From the NCBI GenBank assembly GCA_029252555.1, contig JAQXBF010000005.1, positions 114,460-178,459 of the forward strand: a stretch of 64,000 nucleotides of DNA. Reading direction: 5' to 3'. The translations under genes and the position numbers were made by a program. The stretch's first letter is position 1, and every line of letters starts with the position of its first letter. Source of the stretch: Porticoccaceae bacterium. Lineage in GTDB: Bacteria > Pseudomonadota > Gammaproteobacteria > Pseudomonadales > Porticoccaceae. This document shows, one piece after another, positions 2,991 through 54,311 of the stretch. The notes under the pieces are model-generated. The model saw only the letters and a list, made by a program, of their open reading frames with translations, had not been told where the DNA came from and searched no databases.

Positions 2991-3067
<77 letters not shown>

Positions 3068-9325: not shown

Positions 9326-9408
9326 CTGCCAAACAATTTGAGATAGGTTGTCTGTAAATATGCACGGGCAACCCGAATTTAACTAACCCGCATATTGGAG
9401 AAAATATC

Positions 9409-9678
9409 ATGGCACTGAGTGCAGAAGAAAAAGCAGCAATCGTTACTGAACACGCAACCTGCGAAAATGACACAGGTTCACCTGAAGTGCAGGTTGCACT
9501 GCTAACCGTAAACATCAATAAGCTACAGGGTCACTTTGGTGATCACAAAAAGGATCATCACTCACGTCGTGGTCTGATCCGCATGGTTAACCAGCGTCGC
9601 AAGTTGCTCGACTATTTAAAGAGCAAAGACGCAGTACGTTATTCTGCGCTGATCAAGAAGCTTGGTTTACGTCGATAA
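9409..9678 (+). CDS. rpsO: 30S ribosomal protein S15
   Basis: [38 protein letters not shown]. Confidence 0.99.
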
Positions 9679-44900: not shown

Positions 44901-45575
44901 GGGTTGATAGTACTGATTGCGGAACATAATCCGTTTAACCAGAAGCTGGTTGTTAAGCTTTTGGAAGGCTATGGTGCCACCTGTATGGTTGCTAACAATG
45001 GCTTGTAAGCAGCGGAATTAGCCGAAGAGCTCCATGTAGACGTTATTCTTATGGATCTTCATATGCCGGTGGTTGATGGTGTTGCTGCTTGCGAGAACAT
45101 CATGCAGCAATCAGGGGACAGCCCGCCTATTATTGGGCTAAAAGCAGATATCACTCAAGCTGAGCATTTGAGAATGATTTCTGCCGGCGCTGTTAGTGTT
45201 CAGGCCAAACCCTTGGATGAAATCAAATTGGTTAATGCCATTCTTAGATTCCTGAGTGATCAAAGAGAGGTGTCTGAGGCCTCTGATGGTGGTTTGCTCG
45301 CTTCAGTTATTACTGTTGAAGAATTACAGGCGGCTCTGGTTGAAAATTTGGATAAACTAGAAACCCAATTGAATGCATGTGAAAAAAGTGGCCTAAGGCA
45401 AATAATTCACGATCTAATGGGGCTATGTGGCGACTATGGTATGTCGGTACTGCGGGAATTAGTGCTGGAATTCAGGGCACCCTATGGCACATTGTGCGTC
45501 GAAGAGAATCTTCAAAAAGTTGAGAAAATACGCCAGCATATTGAAGATTTCTTTGCCTTAAAATCTGCTAAATAA
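44901..45575 (+). pseudogene. Truncated remnant of a hybrid sensor kinase C-terminus (REC plus HPt; BarA/GacS-like)
   Basis: In frame GLIVLIAEHNPFNQKLVVKLL...NNGL*AAELA...DVILMDLHMPVVDG...AKPLD...HDLMGLCGDYG; TAA at 45006-45008; no kinase or sensor domains upstream. Confidence 0.75.
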
Positions 45576-45675
45576 TCTACAAGTTAACTAATACTTTGGT
45601 ATTAACTCGTCAGTGTAATTTATTTCTTTTTTTGAATGCCTTATCTTACTACCTAGCATTGACTCCTTGGCATGA

Positions 45676-45978
45676 TGCTTTGACAGGGACTTTACTGGTA
45701 AAAATACACAGACCTACACTGCTGTAAGGAAAGTAACACTGATAAACAGGATGTTTTAGAGCAAGATTGACAGGGAGTTTACTCCAAGGATAGCCGCTCG
45801 CTCAGTTGTTAGATTTCGTTTGCTACCAGTTGTGCGGTATAGACGACTTGGAAGTCGTGCGCCATGGACGGCGTAAGTCAATCTTTAATATTGGACATGT
45901 TTCAAATTTAGGCATAGTCGTTTTCCTTATTTCTAGCTAATTAAGCCCCCAGATTGAGATGTCTGTGGGCTTTCTTAT
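45676..45978 (+). ncRNA. Candidate CsrB/Rsm-type (CsrA-sequestering) small RNA
   Basis: Eight GGA motifs in 45687-45895 (five ANGGA, one CAGGATG), several in hairpin loops; terminator-like hairpin at 45943-45978; no ORF; boundaries approximate. Confidence 0.55.
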
Positions 45979-46108
45979 ATGTGGGAATAAAAAATACAGA
46001 CTAGCAACAGAGTGATGTCTTTTGATCATCTGATCAACAAACGCATAATTACTTTTACTCATGGAGCTTTAGGCCATAGACTGTCGTAAAGTACTAACCG
46101 TTTACGAT

Positions 46109-48595
46109 ATGTCCAAAAAAACTAAAAAGCCAGATCTGTTCGCGACTCGAGAAGCGACTAAGTATGCTCGTCCTATTCCCAGCCGTGAATTTGTCTTAGA
46201 TTATCTTCGAGAAAGCGTCGGTCCAGTCACCCATGAGGAAATTTGCACAGCTCTGAATTTATCGGATGAAGATCAAGTGGAAGCTATGCGTCGGCGCTTA
46301 CGAGCTATGGAGCGAGATGGCCAGATAGCCCGCAATCGTCGTGGCGGTTATGGAACTCTCGATAAGTTGAACCTGGTTAAAGGTCGGGTGATTGGCCACC
46401 CTGAGGGCTATGGGTTTGTCTCTCCGATACAGGGCGATGGCCAGGATATATACCTGTCTAGTGCGCAGATGCGACGTGTTTTCGATGGGGACATAGTGCT
46501 GGTGAGAATTGCTGGCTGGGATCGCCGTGGGCGTCCAGATGGTAGCTTGGTTGATGTGGTTGAGCGCAAGACAACCCAGTTAGTGGGTCGCTACTTCCGT
46601 GAGAGTGGTATTAGTTTTGTGCGTCCCGATAACCCCCGTATCAGTCAGGACATATTGATTCCCGGAGATAGGTCGCTAAAAGCTGAGCCAGGCCAAATTG
46701 TGGTAGTCGATATCGTCGAACCACCTTCTAGAAATAGTCTGCCCGTCGGCCATATTTCTGAAGTATTGGGTGAGCACCTTGATCCTGGTCTAGAAATCGA
46801 TATGTCTATCCGCAACTATGGCATTCCCCATCAGTGGAATAATGAGGTGATTGCAGAGACGGCTGATATCCCAGATCAAGTCCAGGATAAAGAGCTGCGC
46901 GTGGATCTAAGGAATACGCCACTTATTACCATTGATGGAGAAGATGCTCGGGACTTCGATGATGCTGTTTACTGCCAATCCAAATCACGTGGTGGCTGGA
47001 TATTAATAGTAGCCATCGCTGATGTCTCTCATTATGTAACAGTGGGGTCGGCCCTTGATAAGGAAGCATTTCAGCGGGGCAACTCGGTGTACTTTCCCAA
47101 TTATGTGGTGCCGATGTTGCCGGAGAAGCTATCTAATGGCCTCTGCTCATTAAATCCTGCGGAAGATCGCCTTTGTATGGTCTGCGAGATGCAGGTTAGT
47201 GCCGAGGGCGAGATTAGCCGCTACCAGTTTTATGAAGCAGTGATGCACTCCCACGCTCGTATGACCTATACACAGGTCGCCCATATTCTTGCGGAAAAAG
47301 ATCAGGAAAATACCTCTGGGGTGCGCAAACAGTTCGCTGCAATTTTGCCTCAGGTCGACGCATTACATGATTTGTATAGAGTGCTTCACAGCCGTCGAGC
47401 CAAGCGTGGGGCGATCGATTTTGATAGCCAAGAGACAAGAATTCTTTTTGATAGCCAGCGCAAGATAAGCCAGATTATTCCAGTGGACCGTACTGAGGCT
47501 CACAGGTTAATCGAAGAATGTATGCTCTGCGCCAATGTGTGTTCTGCTCAATTCTTGGATAAGGTTAAGATTCCCGCTCTCTATCGAGTGCATGAGGGCC
47601 CTAGTGAAGAGCGCCTAACTTCGGTCCGTGACTTTCTTGGTGAGCTTGGTATTGGCTTGGGTGGAGGTGATGACCCGCAGCCCGAAGACTACCAGCGAGT
47701 GCTCAGATCAGTAAAAGGTCGGGACGACGCCGCGGTTATTCAGTCGGTCATGCTGCGGTCCATGAGCCAAGCTATGTATCAACCGGAAAATCTTGGTCAC
47801 TTTGGATTAGCCTTCGAAGCCTATACACATTTCACCTCTCCGATTCGTCGATATGCTGATTTGTTGGTGCACAGAGCGATTCGAAGCCTTATCAGGAGCA
47901 AGAAAAAAATATCTGCAGTGCAGCGGGTGCCTGGGGCGAGTATTCTTGATCAGCAGGCTATATATCCCTATGAACTTGGGCGTTTAGCAGAGACTGGTGA
48001 GCACCTTTCGGTGACTGAGCGCCGAGCCGACGAAGCCACAAGAGATGTGGTTAATTGGCTCAAATGTGAATATTTAATGGACAGGGTGGGGGAGCAGTAC
48101 TCTGGTGTGGTCAGTGCCGTAACTGGCTTTGGCCTATTCGTTATGCTTGATGATCTCTATGTTGAGGGTCTAATTCATGTAACAGGGCTGCCCAAAGATT
48201 ATTACTACCATGAGGCCTCTCAGCATCGCATGGTGGGTGAGCGTACTGGGCGCACCTTCCGTCTCGGCCAGAAGCTGCAAGTAAAAGTAGTGCGGGTTAA
48301 TTTGGAAGAGCGCAAAATTGACTTTGAGTTAGTGGAAAGCTCGAATACTGAAACTGGCGCTCGAGGGGCAAGATCTGCGTCAGCAAAAAAGACCAGAGTA
48401 TCCCCAAAAGCAGCGGAAATGGCCTCTGAGCATGAGAAAAAGCGCAACAGCCGAGGCAAAGCAGGTAAGAAAAAACCCGTCGCTGCAGGTAAAAAGAAGG
48501 CTATATCTAGGCGACGCAAGTCTAGCGGGGTAAAAGGCACCGGCGGCAAACGGTCTGCGACAAAAGCTAAGGGTAAGAAAAACCCCCGCAGTTAA
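46109..48595 (+). CDS. rnr: Ribonuclease R
   Basis: HPEGYGFV, TIDGEDARDFDDAV, HFTSPIRRYADL, S1 domain, basic C-terminal tail. Confidence 0.98.
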   Translation: MSKKTKKPDLFATREATKYARPIPSREFVLDYLRESVGPVTHEEICTALNLSDEDQVEAMRRRLRAMERDGQIARNRRGGYGTLDKLNLVKGRVIGHPEGYGFVSPIQGDGQDIYLSSAQMRRVFDGDIVLVRIAGWDRRGRPDGSLVDVVERKTTQLVGRYFRESGISFVRPDNPRISQDILIPGDRSLKAEPGQIVVVDIVEPPSRNSLPVGHISEVLGEHLDPGLEIDMSIRNYGIPHQWNNEVIAETADIPDQVQDKELRVDLRNTPLITIDGEDARDFDDAVYCQSKSRGGWILIVAIADVSHYVTVGSALDKEAFQRGNSVYFPNYVVPMLPEKLSNGLCSLNPAEDRLCMVCEMQVSAEGEISRYQFYEAVMHSHARMTYTQVAHILAEKDQENTSGVRKQFAAILPQVDALHDLYRVLHSRRAKRGAIDFDSQETRILFDSQRKISQIIPVDRTEAHRLIEECMLCANVCSAQFLDKVKIPALYRVHEGPSEERLTSVRDFLGELGIGLGGGDDPQPEDYQRVLRSVKGRDDAAVIQSVMLRSMSQAMYQPENLGHFGLAFEAYTHFTSPIRRYADLLVHRAIRSLIRSKKKISAVQRVPGASILDQQAIYPYELGRLAETGEHLSVTERRADEATRDVVNWLKCEYLMDRVGEQYSGVVSAVTGFGLFVMLDDLYVEGLIHVTGLPKDYYYHEASQHRMVGERTGRTFRLGQKLQVKVVRVNLEERKIDFELVESSNTETGARGARSASAKKTRVSPKAAEMASEHEKKRNSRGKAGKKKPVAAGKKKAISRRRKSSGVKGTGGKRSATKAKGKKNPRS

Positions 48596-53463: not shown

Positions 53464-53588
53464 TTACCTGTTTGCTCAGTTATTGAATGCAATGGGAATT
53501 ATAGCTAATCGGAGAGCGGCAATGGTAATAAACATCATCTAAAGTATGTATGATACAGGAGCGCGGCTGAAACCAATGGAGGGTTATT

Positions 53589-54311
53589 ATGGTCAAGGTT
53601 TTGATCGTGGACGACGACCTGTTGGTGGGTGTTCGCATTGAACAGCTGCTGGCAGCAGTAAAAAATATAGAAGTTGTTGGAATAGCCGCGACTGGTTGTG
53701 ATGCCCAAGCCATAGCCAGCAAGAACAACCCTGATATCTTGCTCTTGAAACTTCCCATAGCATCTGAAAATGAAATCCATATTGTTGAATTACTGCAGCG
53801 GGCTGACTTCTTTCCCGTGGTGATATTTTGCCCTTCATTCGATGGTTTTAACCCAATGCCAGCCGCTATTAAGCGTGCGGCATCCTTCAAGATGAAGCTC
53901 GTTAATTCAGATGATTTGCTCTCGTCACTGCTGGCCGCCAGTAAGTTAGTCCATCGGCAACGCAAAGAAAAAAGCGTCGAACCTAGAACCCACCTGTACG
54001 TATATAGCTATTTAGGCATAGATGAAATTCCTATCGACAAAGTGCTGTTTCTGCAAGCAGATCAAAAATATGTCAAAGCCTACATGGCGGACTCTGTTGT
54101 CACCATCAATGACAGCATCAAGAGCTTGGAAGCAGAATTTAAGCAGCTATTTGTCAGAATTCATCGCAATGCTCTGTTCGCAATGGATTCTATCGAAGGC
54201 CTTACGAAAATTCATGGTCGTCTGGTGGTAAAAATTAAACGCTTAGGCATTGAGCCCATCGTTAGTCGATGAAGAGCATCATATTTGCGTCAATTATTGC
54301 CACTTCTCTGA
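53589..54311 (+). pseudogene. algR: Degenerate AlgR-like LytTR response regulator, premature TGA
   Basis: LytTR motifs ADQKYV, SIKSLEAEF, FVRIHRNAL; receiver lacks the phospho-Asp (ILLLKLP for VLLDIRMP); VSR*RASYLRQLLPLL* (TGA at 54270); algR position between argH and hemC. Confidence 0.65.

What the first reader, a model, noticed from the sequence alone, without database searches (positions are those of the whole stretch)
45633..45978. Unannotated CsrB/Rsm-like sRNA candidate between the BarA-like remnant and rnr
Seen: an ORF-free stretch with eight plus-strand GGA motifs within ~210 nt (45687, 45728, 45749, 45774, 45788, 45850, 45866, 45893), against three TCC on the other strand in 45660-45930. 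Five are ANGGA and one is CAGGATG. Several sit in hairpin loops: AAAC-AGGAT-GTTT, ACGACT-TGGA-AGTCGT, CGCC-ATGGAC-GGCG, AATAT-TGGAC-ATGTT. A 17-mer is duplicated (TTGACAGGGA[C/G]TTTACT at 45680 and 45767). A closing hairpin AAGCCC..CAGAT/GTCTG..GGGCTT lies at 45943-45973. Upstream, TGAATG-CCTTAT-CTTACT (45633-45650) matches 9/12 of the GacA/UvrY box TGTAAG-N6-CTTACA. Known: CsrA/RsmA binds GGA in loops of repeated hairpins, and these sRNAs are activated by BarA/UvrY (GacS/GacA). Inference: a lineage-specific CsrA sponge.
Basis: partly seen in the sequence, partly recalled or inferred. Interest (0 to 1): 0.65.

Follow-up and report, generated by a model that had tools for sequence, protein, structure and literature searches.

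The report
New CsrA-sponge small RNA in SAR92
The gap upstream of rnr in this marine SAR92-clade bacterium holds a conserved, structured small RNA, absent from Rfam, whose unpaired GGA motifs make it most likely a decoy for the regulator CsrA; the sensor system normally encoded beside it has been deleted in this genome.

Summary

The stretch is a real RNA gene on the plus strand, about 45654-45975. It is more conserved than the flanking genes. It has its own conserved promoter and a terminator, and occurs once per genome. A covariance model finds it in 37 of 79 genomes of one genus (SAR92/HTCC2207) and essentially nowhere else in Porticoccaceae.

A 25-sequence alignment supports eight helices (19 pairs with compensatory changes). 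All six conserved GGA motifs stay unpaired. Relatives carry two to four tandem copies of the GGA-hairpin module, up to 21 GGA against 3 TCC. csrA is present. A CsrA sponge is the best reading, at about 0.75.

The proposed GacA box is wrong. It overlaps the -10 element, is not conserved, and the genus has no GacA/UvrY. The real upstream element is an 18-bp palindrome plus CAGTGTAAT.

In relatives the RNA follows a cassette of NarL-type regulator, TonB receptor, binding protein and BarA-like kinase. This genome deleted about 5.7 kb of it, leaving a dead receiver-Hpt stub.

No Rfam family matches.

The parts
45588..45605 (+). 18-bp palindrome CTAATACTTTGGTATTAA (consensus CTAATAC-N4-GTATTAG), centred near -57; presumed activator site
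   Evidence: Conserved in all relatives. Together with the next box it is single-copy in 50/79 genus genomes, absent from the reversed-pattern control, and has a single 2-mismatch match among the 19 other genera.
45606..45619 (+). Near-invariant box CTCGTCAGTGTAAT, about -48 to -35
   Evidence: CAGTGTAAT is almost unchanged across the sRNA promoters of both RNA types.
45642..45647 (+). -10 element TATCTT; the start of transcription is inferred at about 45654 +/- 2
   Evidence: TAnnnT sits exactly 22 nt after the box in 42 of 42 distinct promoters. Sequence conservation of the RNA body starts just downstream.
45654..45975 (+). Predicted sRNA, about 320 nt. The conserved core is 45652-45884, followed by a variable spacer and the terminator.
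   Evidence: Covariance-model hit at G000:C15:160111-160343, which is window 45652-45884, at 232 bits. nhmmer finds a single copy in the genome. Identity to relatives is 73-89% against about 70-75% for the flanking CDS.
45658..45665 (+). P1 5' strand ATTGACTC, pairing with 45875-45882 to close the core
   Evidence: 98.5% of cells paired, with 2 compensatory pairs.
45687..45689 (+). GGA site 1 (ACAGGGAC), unpaired in the tested covariation-supported model; the single-sequence fold pairs it instead
   Evidence: Invariant columns.
45705..45726 (+). Hairpin with invariant loop CCUACAC (45713-19); role unknown
   Evidence: Helix 2 has 3 compensatory pairs. The loop is invariant, and a related CAUACAC occurs in type-B RNAs.
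45744..45756 (+). GGA hairpin 2: AAAC-AGGAU-GUUU (contains CAGGAUG)
   Evidence: Helix 4: the pair at columns 98/106 is GC in 12 sequences and AU in 11.
45765..45783 (+). GGA hairpin 3: GAUUGAC-AGGGA-GUUUACU (contains ACAGGGAGU)
   Evidence: Helix 6: 98.9% paired, 3 compensatory pairs.
45788..45790 (+). GGA site 4 (AAGGAU), single-stranded inside the P4 stem (45759-62 with 45796-99)
45843..45858 (+). GGA hairpin 5: ACGAC-UUGGAA-GUCGU
   Evidence: Helix 7: 96% paired.
45859..45874 (+). GGA hairpin 6: GCGCC-AUGGAC-GGCGU (CANGGANG)
   Evidence: Helix 8: the pair at columns 257/269 is GC in 14 sequences and AU in 10.
45943..45980 (+). Terminator hairpin AAGCCCCCAGA..UCUGUGGGCUU followed by a weak U-tract (UUCUUAUAU)
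   Evidence: Folded. Relatives have canonical AAGCCUCG..CGAGGCUUUUUUU at the same place. The simple scan did not call it in the window.
44904..45575 (+). Dead receiver-Hpt stub of a BarA-like hybrid kinase, with an in-frame TAA at 45006-08
   Evidence: 67% identical to residues 528-744 of the 751-aa kinase in L141, with the stop replacing a conserved Glu. About 5.7 kb is missing relative to relatives.
46054..46082 (+). rnr's own conserved promoter (TTTACT-N17-TAGACT), downstream of the sRNA terminator
   Evidence: CTTTTACTC and CATAGACT are conserved in all relatives.

Best explanation
Window 45654-45975 (+) encodes a genus-specific small RNA of the SAR92 clade that works like CsrB/RsmY/RsmZ.

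Shown by computation: the gene, its promoter architecture, its fold and its distribution.
- Transcription is inferred to start at about 45654, from a promoter with a weak -35 and a conserved -10.
- The promoter depends on an upstream 18-bp palindrome plus a CAGTGTAAT box.
- The RNA folds into a core closed by a long-range stem.
- The core displays six conserved GGA motifs, four in short hairpin loops and two in single-stranded linkers.
- Transcription ends at a terminator hairpin.

Inferred: several CsrA dimers bind these sites, so the RNA titrates CsrA away from mRNA leaders.

Inferred: in most species of the genus the RNA is switched on by the two-component cassette encoded directly upstream (NarL-type regulator, TonB-dependent receptor, periplasmic binding protein, BarA-like hybrid kinase). 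This genus has no canonical GacA.

In this genome that cassette has been deleted except for a dead receiver-Hpt stub. The RNA here must therefore run on basal transcription or on another regulator that recognises the palindrome.
For: Real gene:
- The intergenic core is 73-89% identical across species, where the flanking CDS are about 70-75%.
- It is single-copy in this genome.
- The covariance model finds it in 37/79 genus genomes, always at the same locus, with only one marginal hit (E = 2.6e-4) in 19 other genera.

Structure (25 sequences, 45 pairs):
- 95.9% of cells are paired, against 26-38% when partners are slid.
- 19 pairs carry compensatory changes.
- 0 of 500 shuffles reach the observed values.
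- All six conserved GGA are unpaired.

Motifs:
- ACAGGGAGU, ACAGGGAC, CAGGAUG and CAYGGANG fit the CsrA SELEX consensus RUACARGGAUGU, which places GGA in short hairpin loops (PMC7652899).

Sponge-like evolution:
- Only the GGA-hairpin module is tandemly repeated, under one promoter and one terminator.
- G100 has 4 modules in 824 nt, with 21 GGA against 3 TCC. G078 has 3 modules, with 19 GGA against 2 TCC.

Partner:
- A canonical csrA is in this genome, in 68/79 genus genomes and in 163/202 family genomes.

Transcription unit:
- The palindrome and box are invariant, and TAnnnT lies at a fixed distance in 42/42 promoters.
- Terminators are conserved in position.

Regulator link:
- The regulator gene lies 2.4-6 kb upstream on the same strand wherever both were located.
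- Co-occurrence is 44/6/16/13, odds ratio 6, Fisher p = 0.002.

Intactness of this copy:
- It scores 232 bits, within the 209-256 range of relatives that keep the cassette.
Against: - CsrA binding was not tested.
- No Rfam Csr/Rsm model matches, even at E <= 10.
- GGA enrichment in this single sequence is weak against its own base composition (p = 0.09).
- In small-genome relatives the RNA (type B) keeps the two 3' hairpins but their loops read AGGGUA and AUAGAU. Only 3-4 GGA remain there, so the fold is conserved for more than GGA display.
- The invariant CCUACAC loop has no role in the sponge model.
- The presumed activator is absent from this genome, so expression here is uncertain.
- The co-occurrence statistic ignores phylogenetic non-independence.
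Confidence: 0.75

Rival explanations
1. It is a genuine structured sRNA, but its main job is not CsrA titration. It could act by base-pairing through the invariant CCUACAC loop or the C/U-rich stretch before the terminator, or it could bind another protein. The GGA motifs would then be secondary.
For: - Type-B RNAs keep the P1 stem, both 3' hairpins and the terminator while losing GGA from those two loops.
- Type-B RNAs also carry a conserved single-stranded ACUCCCUC, which looks like an anti-Shine-Dalgarno seed.
- The CCUACAC loop is invariant in 25/25 type-A sequences.
- No Rfam Csr/Rsm hit.
Against: - Six GGA are invariant, unpaired and in CsrA-consensus contexts.
- Tandem amplification copies only the GGA-hairpin module and leaves out the CCUACAC hairpin, giving 21 GGA against 3 TCC. 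That pattern fits a site-number sponge and does not fit a seed-pairing RNA.
Confidence: 0.15
2. The family is a CsrA sponge, but this genome's copy is an orphaned, largely silent relic, because its activating two-component cassette was deleted.
For: - The regulator, TonB receptor, binding protein and the first ~527 residues of the kinase are missing here. The stub carries a stop codon and a D-to-H change in its acidic pocket.
- The -35 region is poor (TTTATT), so the promoter looks activator-dependent.
- The terminator U-tract is weaker than in relatives.
- Another regulator-less genome, G063, has a degraded copy at 179 bits.
Against: - This copy is intact at 232 bits, and the palindrome and box are unchanged.
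- A second regulator-less species, G004, also keeps an intact RNA (245 bits) and promoter.
- A second promoter with the same palindrome is likewise retained in both regulator-less genomes. This suggests that a binding factor persists.
Confidence: 0.15
3. It is not an independent gene but a cis-acting leader of rnr, or the 3' UTR of the kinase gene.
For: It lies between the two genes on the same strand. The weak terminator in this genome could allow read-through into rnr.
Against: - It has its own conserved promoter between the kinase stop codon and the RNA.
- A terminator lies about 130 nt before rnr, and a separate conserved rnr promoter lies downstream of it.
- Genus members with no such RNA upstream of rnr keep the rnr promoter motifs (L032-L034, L058, L073; L043 keeps only a 3' remnant).
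- The RNA survives where the kinase is dead.
Confidence: 0.04

Closest known systems
RsmY / RsmZ / RsmX of Pseudomonas (Gac/Rsm system)
   Same: - Same GTDB order.
- An sRNA with several ANGGA motifs in short hairpin loops and linkers.
- Its own promoter, with an 18-bp palindromic upstream element and a weak -35.
- A rho-independent terminator.
- A canonical CsrA/RsmA in the genome.
   Different: - No sequence or covariance-model similarity.
- At about 320 nt it is longer.
- The palindrome is CTAATAC-N4-GTATTAG, where the Gac box is TGTAAG-N6-CTTACA.
- There is an extra invariant CAGTGTAAT box.
- The genus has no GacA.
- The candidate regulator scores only 87 bits on the UvrY/GacA model, whose cut-off is 280.
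CsrB / CsrC of Enterobacteria with BarA-UvrY
   Same: - Repeated CAGGAUG-type sites.
- The number of sites grows by tandem repetition, reaching 21 GGA in G100, close to the 13-22 sites reported for CsrB/CsrC (abstract of PMC6546359).
- The best NCBIfam match of the neighbouring kinase is BarA.
   Different: - In most of the genus the RNA gene sits directly downstream of its kinase gene, inside a cassette with a TonB receptor and a binding protein.
- The kinase (751 aa, 415 bits) is far below the BarA cut-off of 890.
- The module repeated here is a multi-hairpin unit of about 170-240 nt. In CsrB the repeated unit is a single hairpin.
   Same: The same RNA family at the same kinase-rnr position. 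That agent also read it as a GGA-loop CsrA sponge absent from Rfam, and reported abundant expression.
   Different: It is an unchecked AI note on another genome, where the kinase is apparently intact. Here the kinase and regulator are deleted.

Membership tests
Csr/Rsm-type CsrA-sequestering sRNAs (functional class) | Several GGA motifs, preferably ANGGA, exposed in hairpin loops or single-stranded linkers | tested here: met
   Six conserved GGA, all unpaired in a covariation-supported structure. The contexts fit RUACARGGAUGU.
Csr/Rsm-type CsrA-sequestering sRNAs (functional class) | A CsrA/RsmA protein encoded in the same genome | tested here: met
   PF02599 hit of 90 bits at G000:C22:55985-56140 with a canonical sequence. 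Present in 68/79 genus genomes.
Csr/Rsm-type CsrA-sequestering sRNAs (functional class) | An independent, non-coding transcription unit | tested here: inconclusive
   Promoter elements and terminator are conserved and no ORF is conserved.
Csr/Rsm-type CsrA-sequestering sRNAs (functional class) | Direct, multivalent binding of CsrA and relief of CsrA-mediated repression | not testable with these tools
   Needs gel shift, CLIP and genetics.
Csr/Rsm-type CsrA-sequestering sRNAs (functional class) | Transcription activated by GacA/UvrY through a TGTAAG-N6-CTTACA box | tested here: not met
There is no receiver+GerE protein in this genome. The genus has no UvrY orthologue, while most sister genera have one at E = 1e-50 to 1e-63.
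Rfam CsrB, CsrC, RsmY, PrrB_RsmZ and rsmX families | Match to the family covariance model at or above the gathering score | tested here: not met
   No hit at gathering score in the window or in 8 related loci. No Csr/Rsm hit even at E <= 10 on 45500-46150.
BarA/GacS sensor kinase (upstream gene) | Tripartite HisKA-HATPase, receiver and Hpt architecture, and a score above the NCBIfam BarA cut-off | tested here: not met
   Relatives have HAMP-HisKA-HATPase-REC by Pfam plus a C-terminal Hpt-like stretch read by eye (HDLMGLCG; no Pfam Hpt hit). BarA is the best hit at 415 bits, below the cut-off of 890. In the window only the receiver-Hpt part remains, with an internal stop.
UvrY/SirA/GacA response regulator (cassette regulator in relatives) | Score above the NCBIfam NF007018 cut-off | tested here: not met
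   87 bits against a cut-off of 280. The best hit is ErdR at 122 bits against 390. The gene is absent from this genome.

The most novel reading that the evidence does not exclude
In the SAR92 genus the classical GacS/GacA input to the Csr system has been replaced. The replacement is a cassette (NarL/ErdR-like regulator, TonB-dependent receptor, periplasmic binding protein, BarA-like kinase) that is physically joined to a modular sponge RNA and to a small regulon sharing one palindromic operator.

The sponge's capacity is tuned between species by module copy number, from 3-4 GGA in streamlined genomes to 21 GGA. The RNA outlives repeated loss of its sensor cassette, which would imply a second, still unknown regulator or a constitutive role. 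It may also carry a second function through the invariant CCUACAC loop.
Probability: 0.35. Interest if true: 0.65.

Novelty: new member of a known kind. Interest (0 to 1): 0.5.

Why it matters
SAR92 bacteria are abundant coastal heterotrophs. No paper in the searched library mentions both SAR92 and CsrA, and nothing on their post-transcriptional control turned up.

The finding gives the clade a concrete, testable Csr circuit: the RNA, its promoter, a candidate sensor cassette linked to a TonB receptor, and a second target promoter. It also adds an RNA family that is missing from Rfam, so it would improve annotation of marine genomes and metatranscriptomes.

Three further points are of wider interest:
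- a Csr sponge can be wired to a sensor other than GacA;
- binding capacity changes between species by tandem duplication of a module;
- genome streamlining removes the sensor but keeps the RNA.

Tried and rejected
- Rfam at gathering score on the window and on 8 related loci, and at E <= 10 on 45500-46150, gave only chance hits (L13 leader, ncr1175 terminator-like, sX7).
- Single-sequence folding is uninformative, with z = -0.8 on the plus strand and -1.0 on the minus strand.
- The consensus promoter/terminator scan found nothing for the sRNA.
- A sigma-54 reading of TTGGCATGATGC was rejected by eye, because the GG is not conserved in relatives.
- A -10 at TAATTT (45616-21) was considered. 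TAnnnT is present there in only 30/42 promoters, against 42/42 at 45642-47.
- I looked for a second Csr-type RNA in this genome. The GGA-dense stretch at C17:139841-140080 is a frameshifted coding gene, and the others lie in CDS or Shine-Dalgarno regions.
- The other hybrid kinase of the genome, on C25, is TorS-like and is paired with a TorR/ArcA-like regulator, so it is not GacS.
- rnr neighbourhoods in other Porticoccaceae and Cellvibrionaceae genera show no kinase or sRNA.
- Literature searches for SAR92 with CsrA or small RNA found nothing.

Full report
**Setting.** The window comes from a 2.3-Mb, 49% GC genome. Record titles of the nearest rnr loci place it in the SAR92 clade, in Porticoccaceae (GTDB order Pseudomonadales, NCBI Cellvibrionales). 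The finding lies in the 533-bp gap between a 174-aa receiver-domain ORF (45051-45575) and rnr (46109-48595), downstream of ffh, rimM, trmD and rplS.

**Observation.** Taken alone, the motif density is only moderately unusual. The 235-nt core holds 7 GGA, against 2.2 expected from genome frequency (p = 0.008), but p = 0.09 against shuffles of the same stretch. About twenty other windows in the genome reach the same ANGGA count. Single-sequence folding is not better than shuffles.

**It is a conserved RNA gene.**
- The stretch 45582-45888 is 73-89% identical in at least 12 species of the genus, while the flanking coding DNA is about 70-75% identical. Synteny with rnr is kept.
- Conservation stops at about 45888 and resumes at rnr's own promoter.
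- A 16-sequence alignment and then a 25-sequence alignment support eight helices. On the 25-sequence set there are 45 pairs, 95.9% of cells are paired (26-38% when the 3' partners are slid), 19 pairs show compensatory changes, and none of 500 shuffles reaches the observed values.
- A covariance model built from the alignment finds the RNA in 37 of 79 genomes of the genus, always at this locus. It gives one marginal hit in 19 other genera of the family. It scores this genome's copy at 232 bits, at window 45652-45884.
- nhmmer finds no second copy in the genome.

**Transcription unit.**
- Upstream lies an 18-bp palindrome (45588-45605; consensus CTAATAC-N4-GTATTAG), followed by a near-invariant CTCGTCAGTGTAAT (45606-45619).
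- Exactly 22 nt further on, TAnnnT is present in 42 of 42 distinct promoters. In the window this is TATCTT at 45642-47.
- This puts the start near 45654, where conservation of the RNA begins. It puts the palindrome centre near -57, above a poor -35.
- The composite motif occurs once per genome in 50 of 79 genus genomes, never in the reversed-pattern control, and virtually never in other genera.
- Relatives end the RNA with a canonical terminator, AAGCCUCG..CGAGGCUUUUUUU. The window has the hairpin at 45943-73 with a weaker U-tract.
- rnr keeps its own conserved promoter downstream, TTTACT-N17-TAGACT at 46054-82.

**Why a CsrA sponge.**
- Six GGA motifs (45687, 45749, 45774, 45788, 45850, 45866) are invariant or nearly so. 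All are unpaired in the supported structure: four in loops of 4-7-bp hairpins and two in linkers.
- Their contexts (ACAGGGAGU, ACAGGGAC, CAGGAUG, CAYGGANG) fit the CsrA SELEX consensus RUACARGGAUGU, which has GGA in short hairpin loops (PMC7652899).
- A canonical csrA is present here and in most of the genus and family.
- The most telling point is how the RNA evolves. Several species carry two to four tandem copies of just the GGA-hairpin domain, between one promoter and one terminator. G100 has 824 nt with 21 GGA against 3 TCC. G078 has 649 nt with 19 GGA against 2 TCC. The 5' part with the CCUACAC hairpin is not copied. Amplifying binding sites in this way is what one expects of a titrating RNA.

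**Caveats.**
- Small-genome species carry a diverged form, type B. It has the same promoter, closing stem, two 3' hairpins and terminator, but those two loops read AGGGUA and AUAGAU, and only 3-4 GGA remain. A conserved single-stranded ACUCCCUC precedes the terminator.
- The CCUACAC loop is invariant in type A and has no explanation.
- So a second function, or a different main function, cannot be excluded.
- No expression or binding data could be obtained.
- An earlier AI note on another SAR92 genome reports the same RNA as abundantly expressed. That is a lead and does not count as evidence here.

- The 45633-50 box is not conserved and overlaps the -10.
- This genome has only four GerE-type HTH proteins, none with a receiver domain, and only nine receiver domains in all.
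It finds none in this genus.
- In relatives, the DNA between rplS and the sRNA instead encodes four proteins:
  - a 224-aa NarL-type regulator, with best NCBIfam hit ErdR and the UvrY/GacA model at 87 bits against a cut-off of 280;
  - a TonB-dependent receptor;
  - a PF04392 periplasmic binding protein;
  - a 751-aa HAMP-HisKA-HATPase-receiver-Hpt kinase (the Hpt part read by eye, with no Pfam hit), whose best hit is BarA at 415 bits against a cut-off of 890.
- The kinase gene ends just before the palindrome in nearly all species.
- The regulator is found in 60 of 79 genus genomes. Wherever both were located it lies 2.4-6 kb upstream of the promoter motif on the same strand. Presence of the two is associated (44/6/16/13, odds ratio 6, p = 0.002, not corrected for phylogeny).
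- That this regulator activates the sRNA through the palindrome is an inference.

**This genome has lost the cassette.**
- About 5.7 kb is missing. What remains (44904-45575) matches residues 528-744 of the kinase at 67% identity. It has a TAA in place of a conserved Glu and EHN in place of EDN in the acidic pocket.
- The regulator is absent.
- Independent truncations of the kinase occur in G004, G023 and G063.
- The sRNA and its promoter are nevertheless intact here, and also in G004.
- A second promoter with the same architecture is conserved across the genus and is kept in both regulator-less genomes. It has a perfect palindrome CTAATACTTTAGTATTAG at C33:40072-40089. It drives a 45-65-aa ORF with a GGA-rich leader, next to an XRE-type HTH gene.
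- Either the deletion is recent, or another factor recognises the palindrome. This is unresolved.

**Comparison with known systems and verdict.**
- The RNA works like RsmY/RsmZ/CsrB but belongs to none of the Rfam families. Its upstream element, its neighbours and its presumed regulator also differ from the Gac/Bar paradigm.
- I file it as a new family within the known class of CsrA-titrating sRNAs, with confidence 0.75 for the sponge mechanism. I put about 0.95 on its being a real structured RNA gene.

Noticed in passing
G000:C33:39825-40100 (locus L143; outside the window): A second promoter has the same architecture as the sRNA promoter: a perfect palindrome CTAATACTTTAGTATTAG, then TAnnnT at the same distance in the three site-2 copies that matched the composite pattern. 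It drives a 45-65-aa ORF (..AF.EAFDGGLE.F..WLESLP.SQR..) with a GGA-rich leader. It is conserved at a syntenic locus in at least 18 genus genomes, beside a LysE-like membrane protein and a convergent XRE-type HTH gene.
   Followed up: partly
window 44904-45575: The upstream 'receiver' ORF is a pseudogene stub of a 751-aa BarA-like kinase, with an in-frame TAA at 45006-08. About 5.7 kb (regulator, TonB receptor, binding protein and the first ~527 residues of the kinase) is deleted relative to relatives. Similar truncations appear in at least three other species.
   Followed up: yes
L159 (G100:C2:807700-809000) and L160 (G078:C1:726550-727600): Relatives carry 4 and 3 tandem copies of the GGA-hairpin module within a single transcription unit, giving 21 and 19 GGA.
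   Followed up: yes
L038, L039, L040, L042, L065, L115, L119, L122, L126, L131, L132, L134, L136: A diverged 'type B' form of the RNA, mostly in small-genome (1.3-1.7 Mb) species. It has the same promoter and overall fold but only 3-4 GGA, and a conserved single-stranded ACUCCCUC before the terminator.
   Followed up: partly
genomes G135-G139 (genus g27), e.g. G135:C36:20566-21183: A second UvrY/GacA-like gene carries exactly one in-frame TGA in all five species of that genus. This could be recoding or a shared pseudogene.
   Followed up: no
window 9344-9465 and 2991-3064: Rfam finds a ribosomal S15 leader and a tRNA. These are the only Rfam hits in the window.
   Followed up: no
window 53571-54269: A 233-aa protein has a weak receiver domain (27 bits, below the cut-off). 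Its C-terminal part looked LytTR-like by eye and was not scanned against a family library.
   Followed up: no
G000:C17:139657-140016 (outside the window): The most GGA-dense intergenic-looking stretch elsewhere in the genome turns out to be a frameshifted small coding gene. It is not an sRNA.
   Followed up: yes
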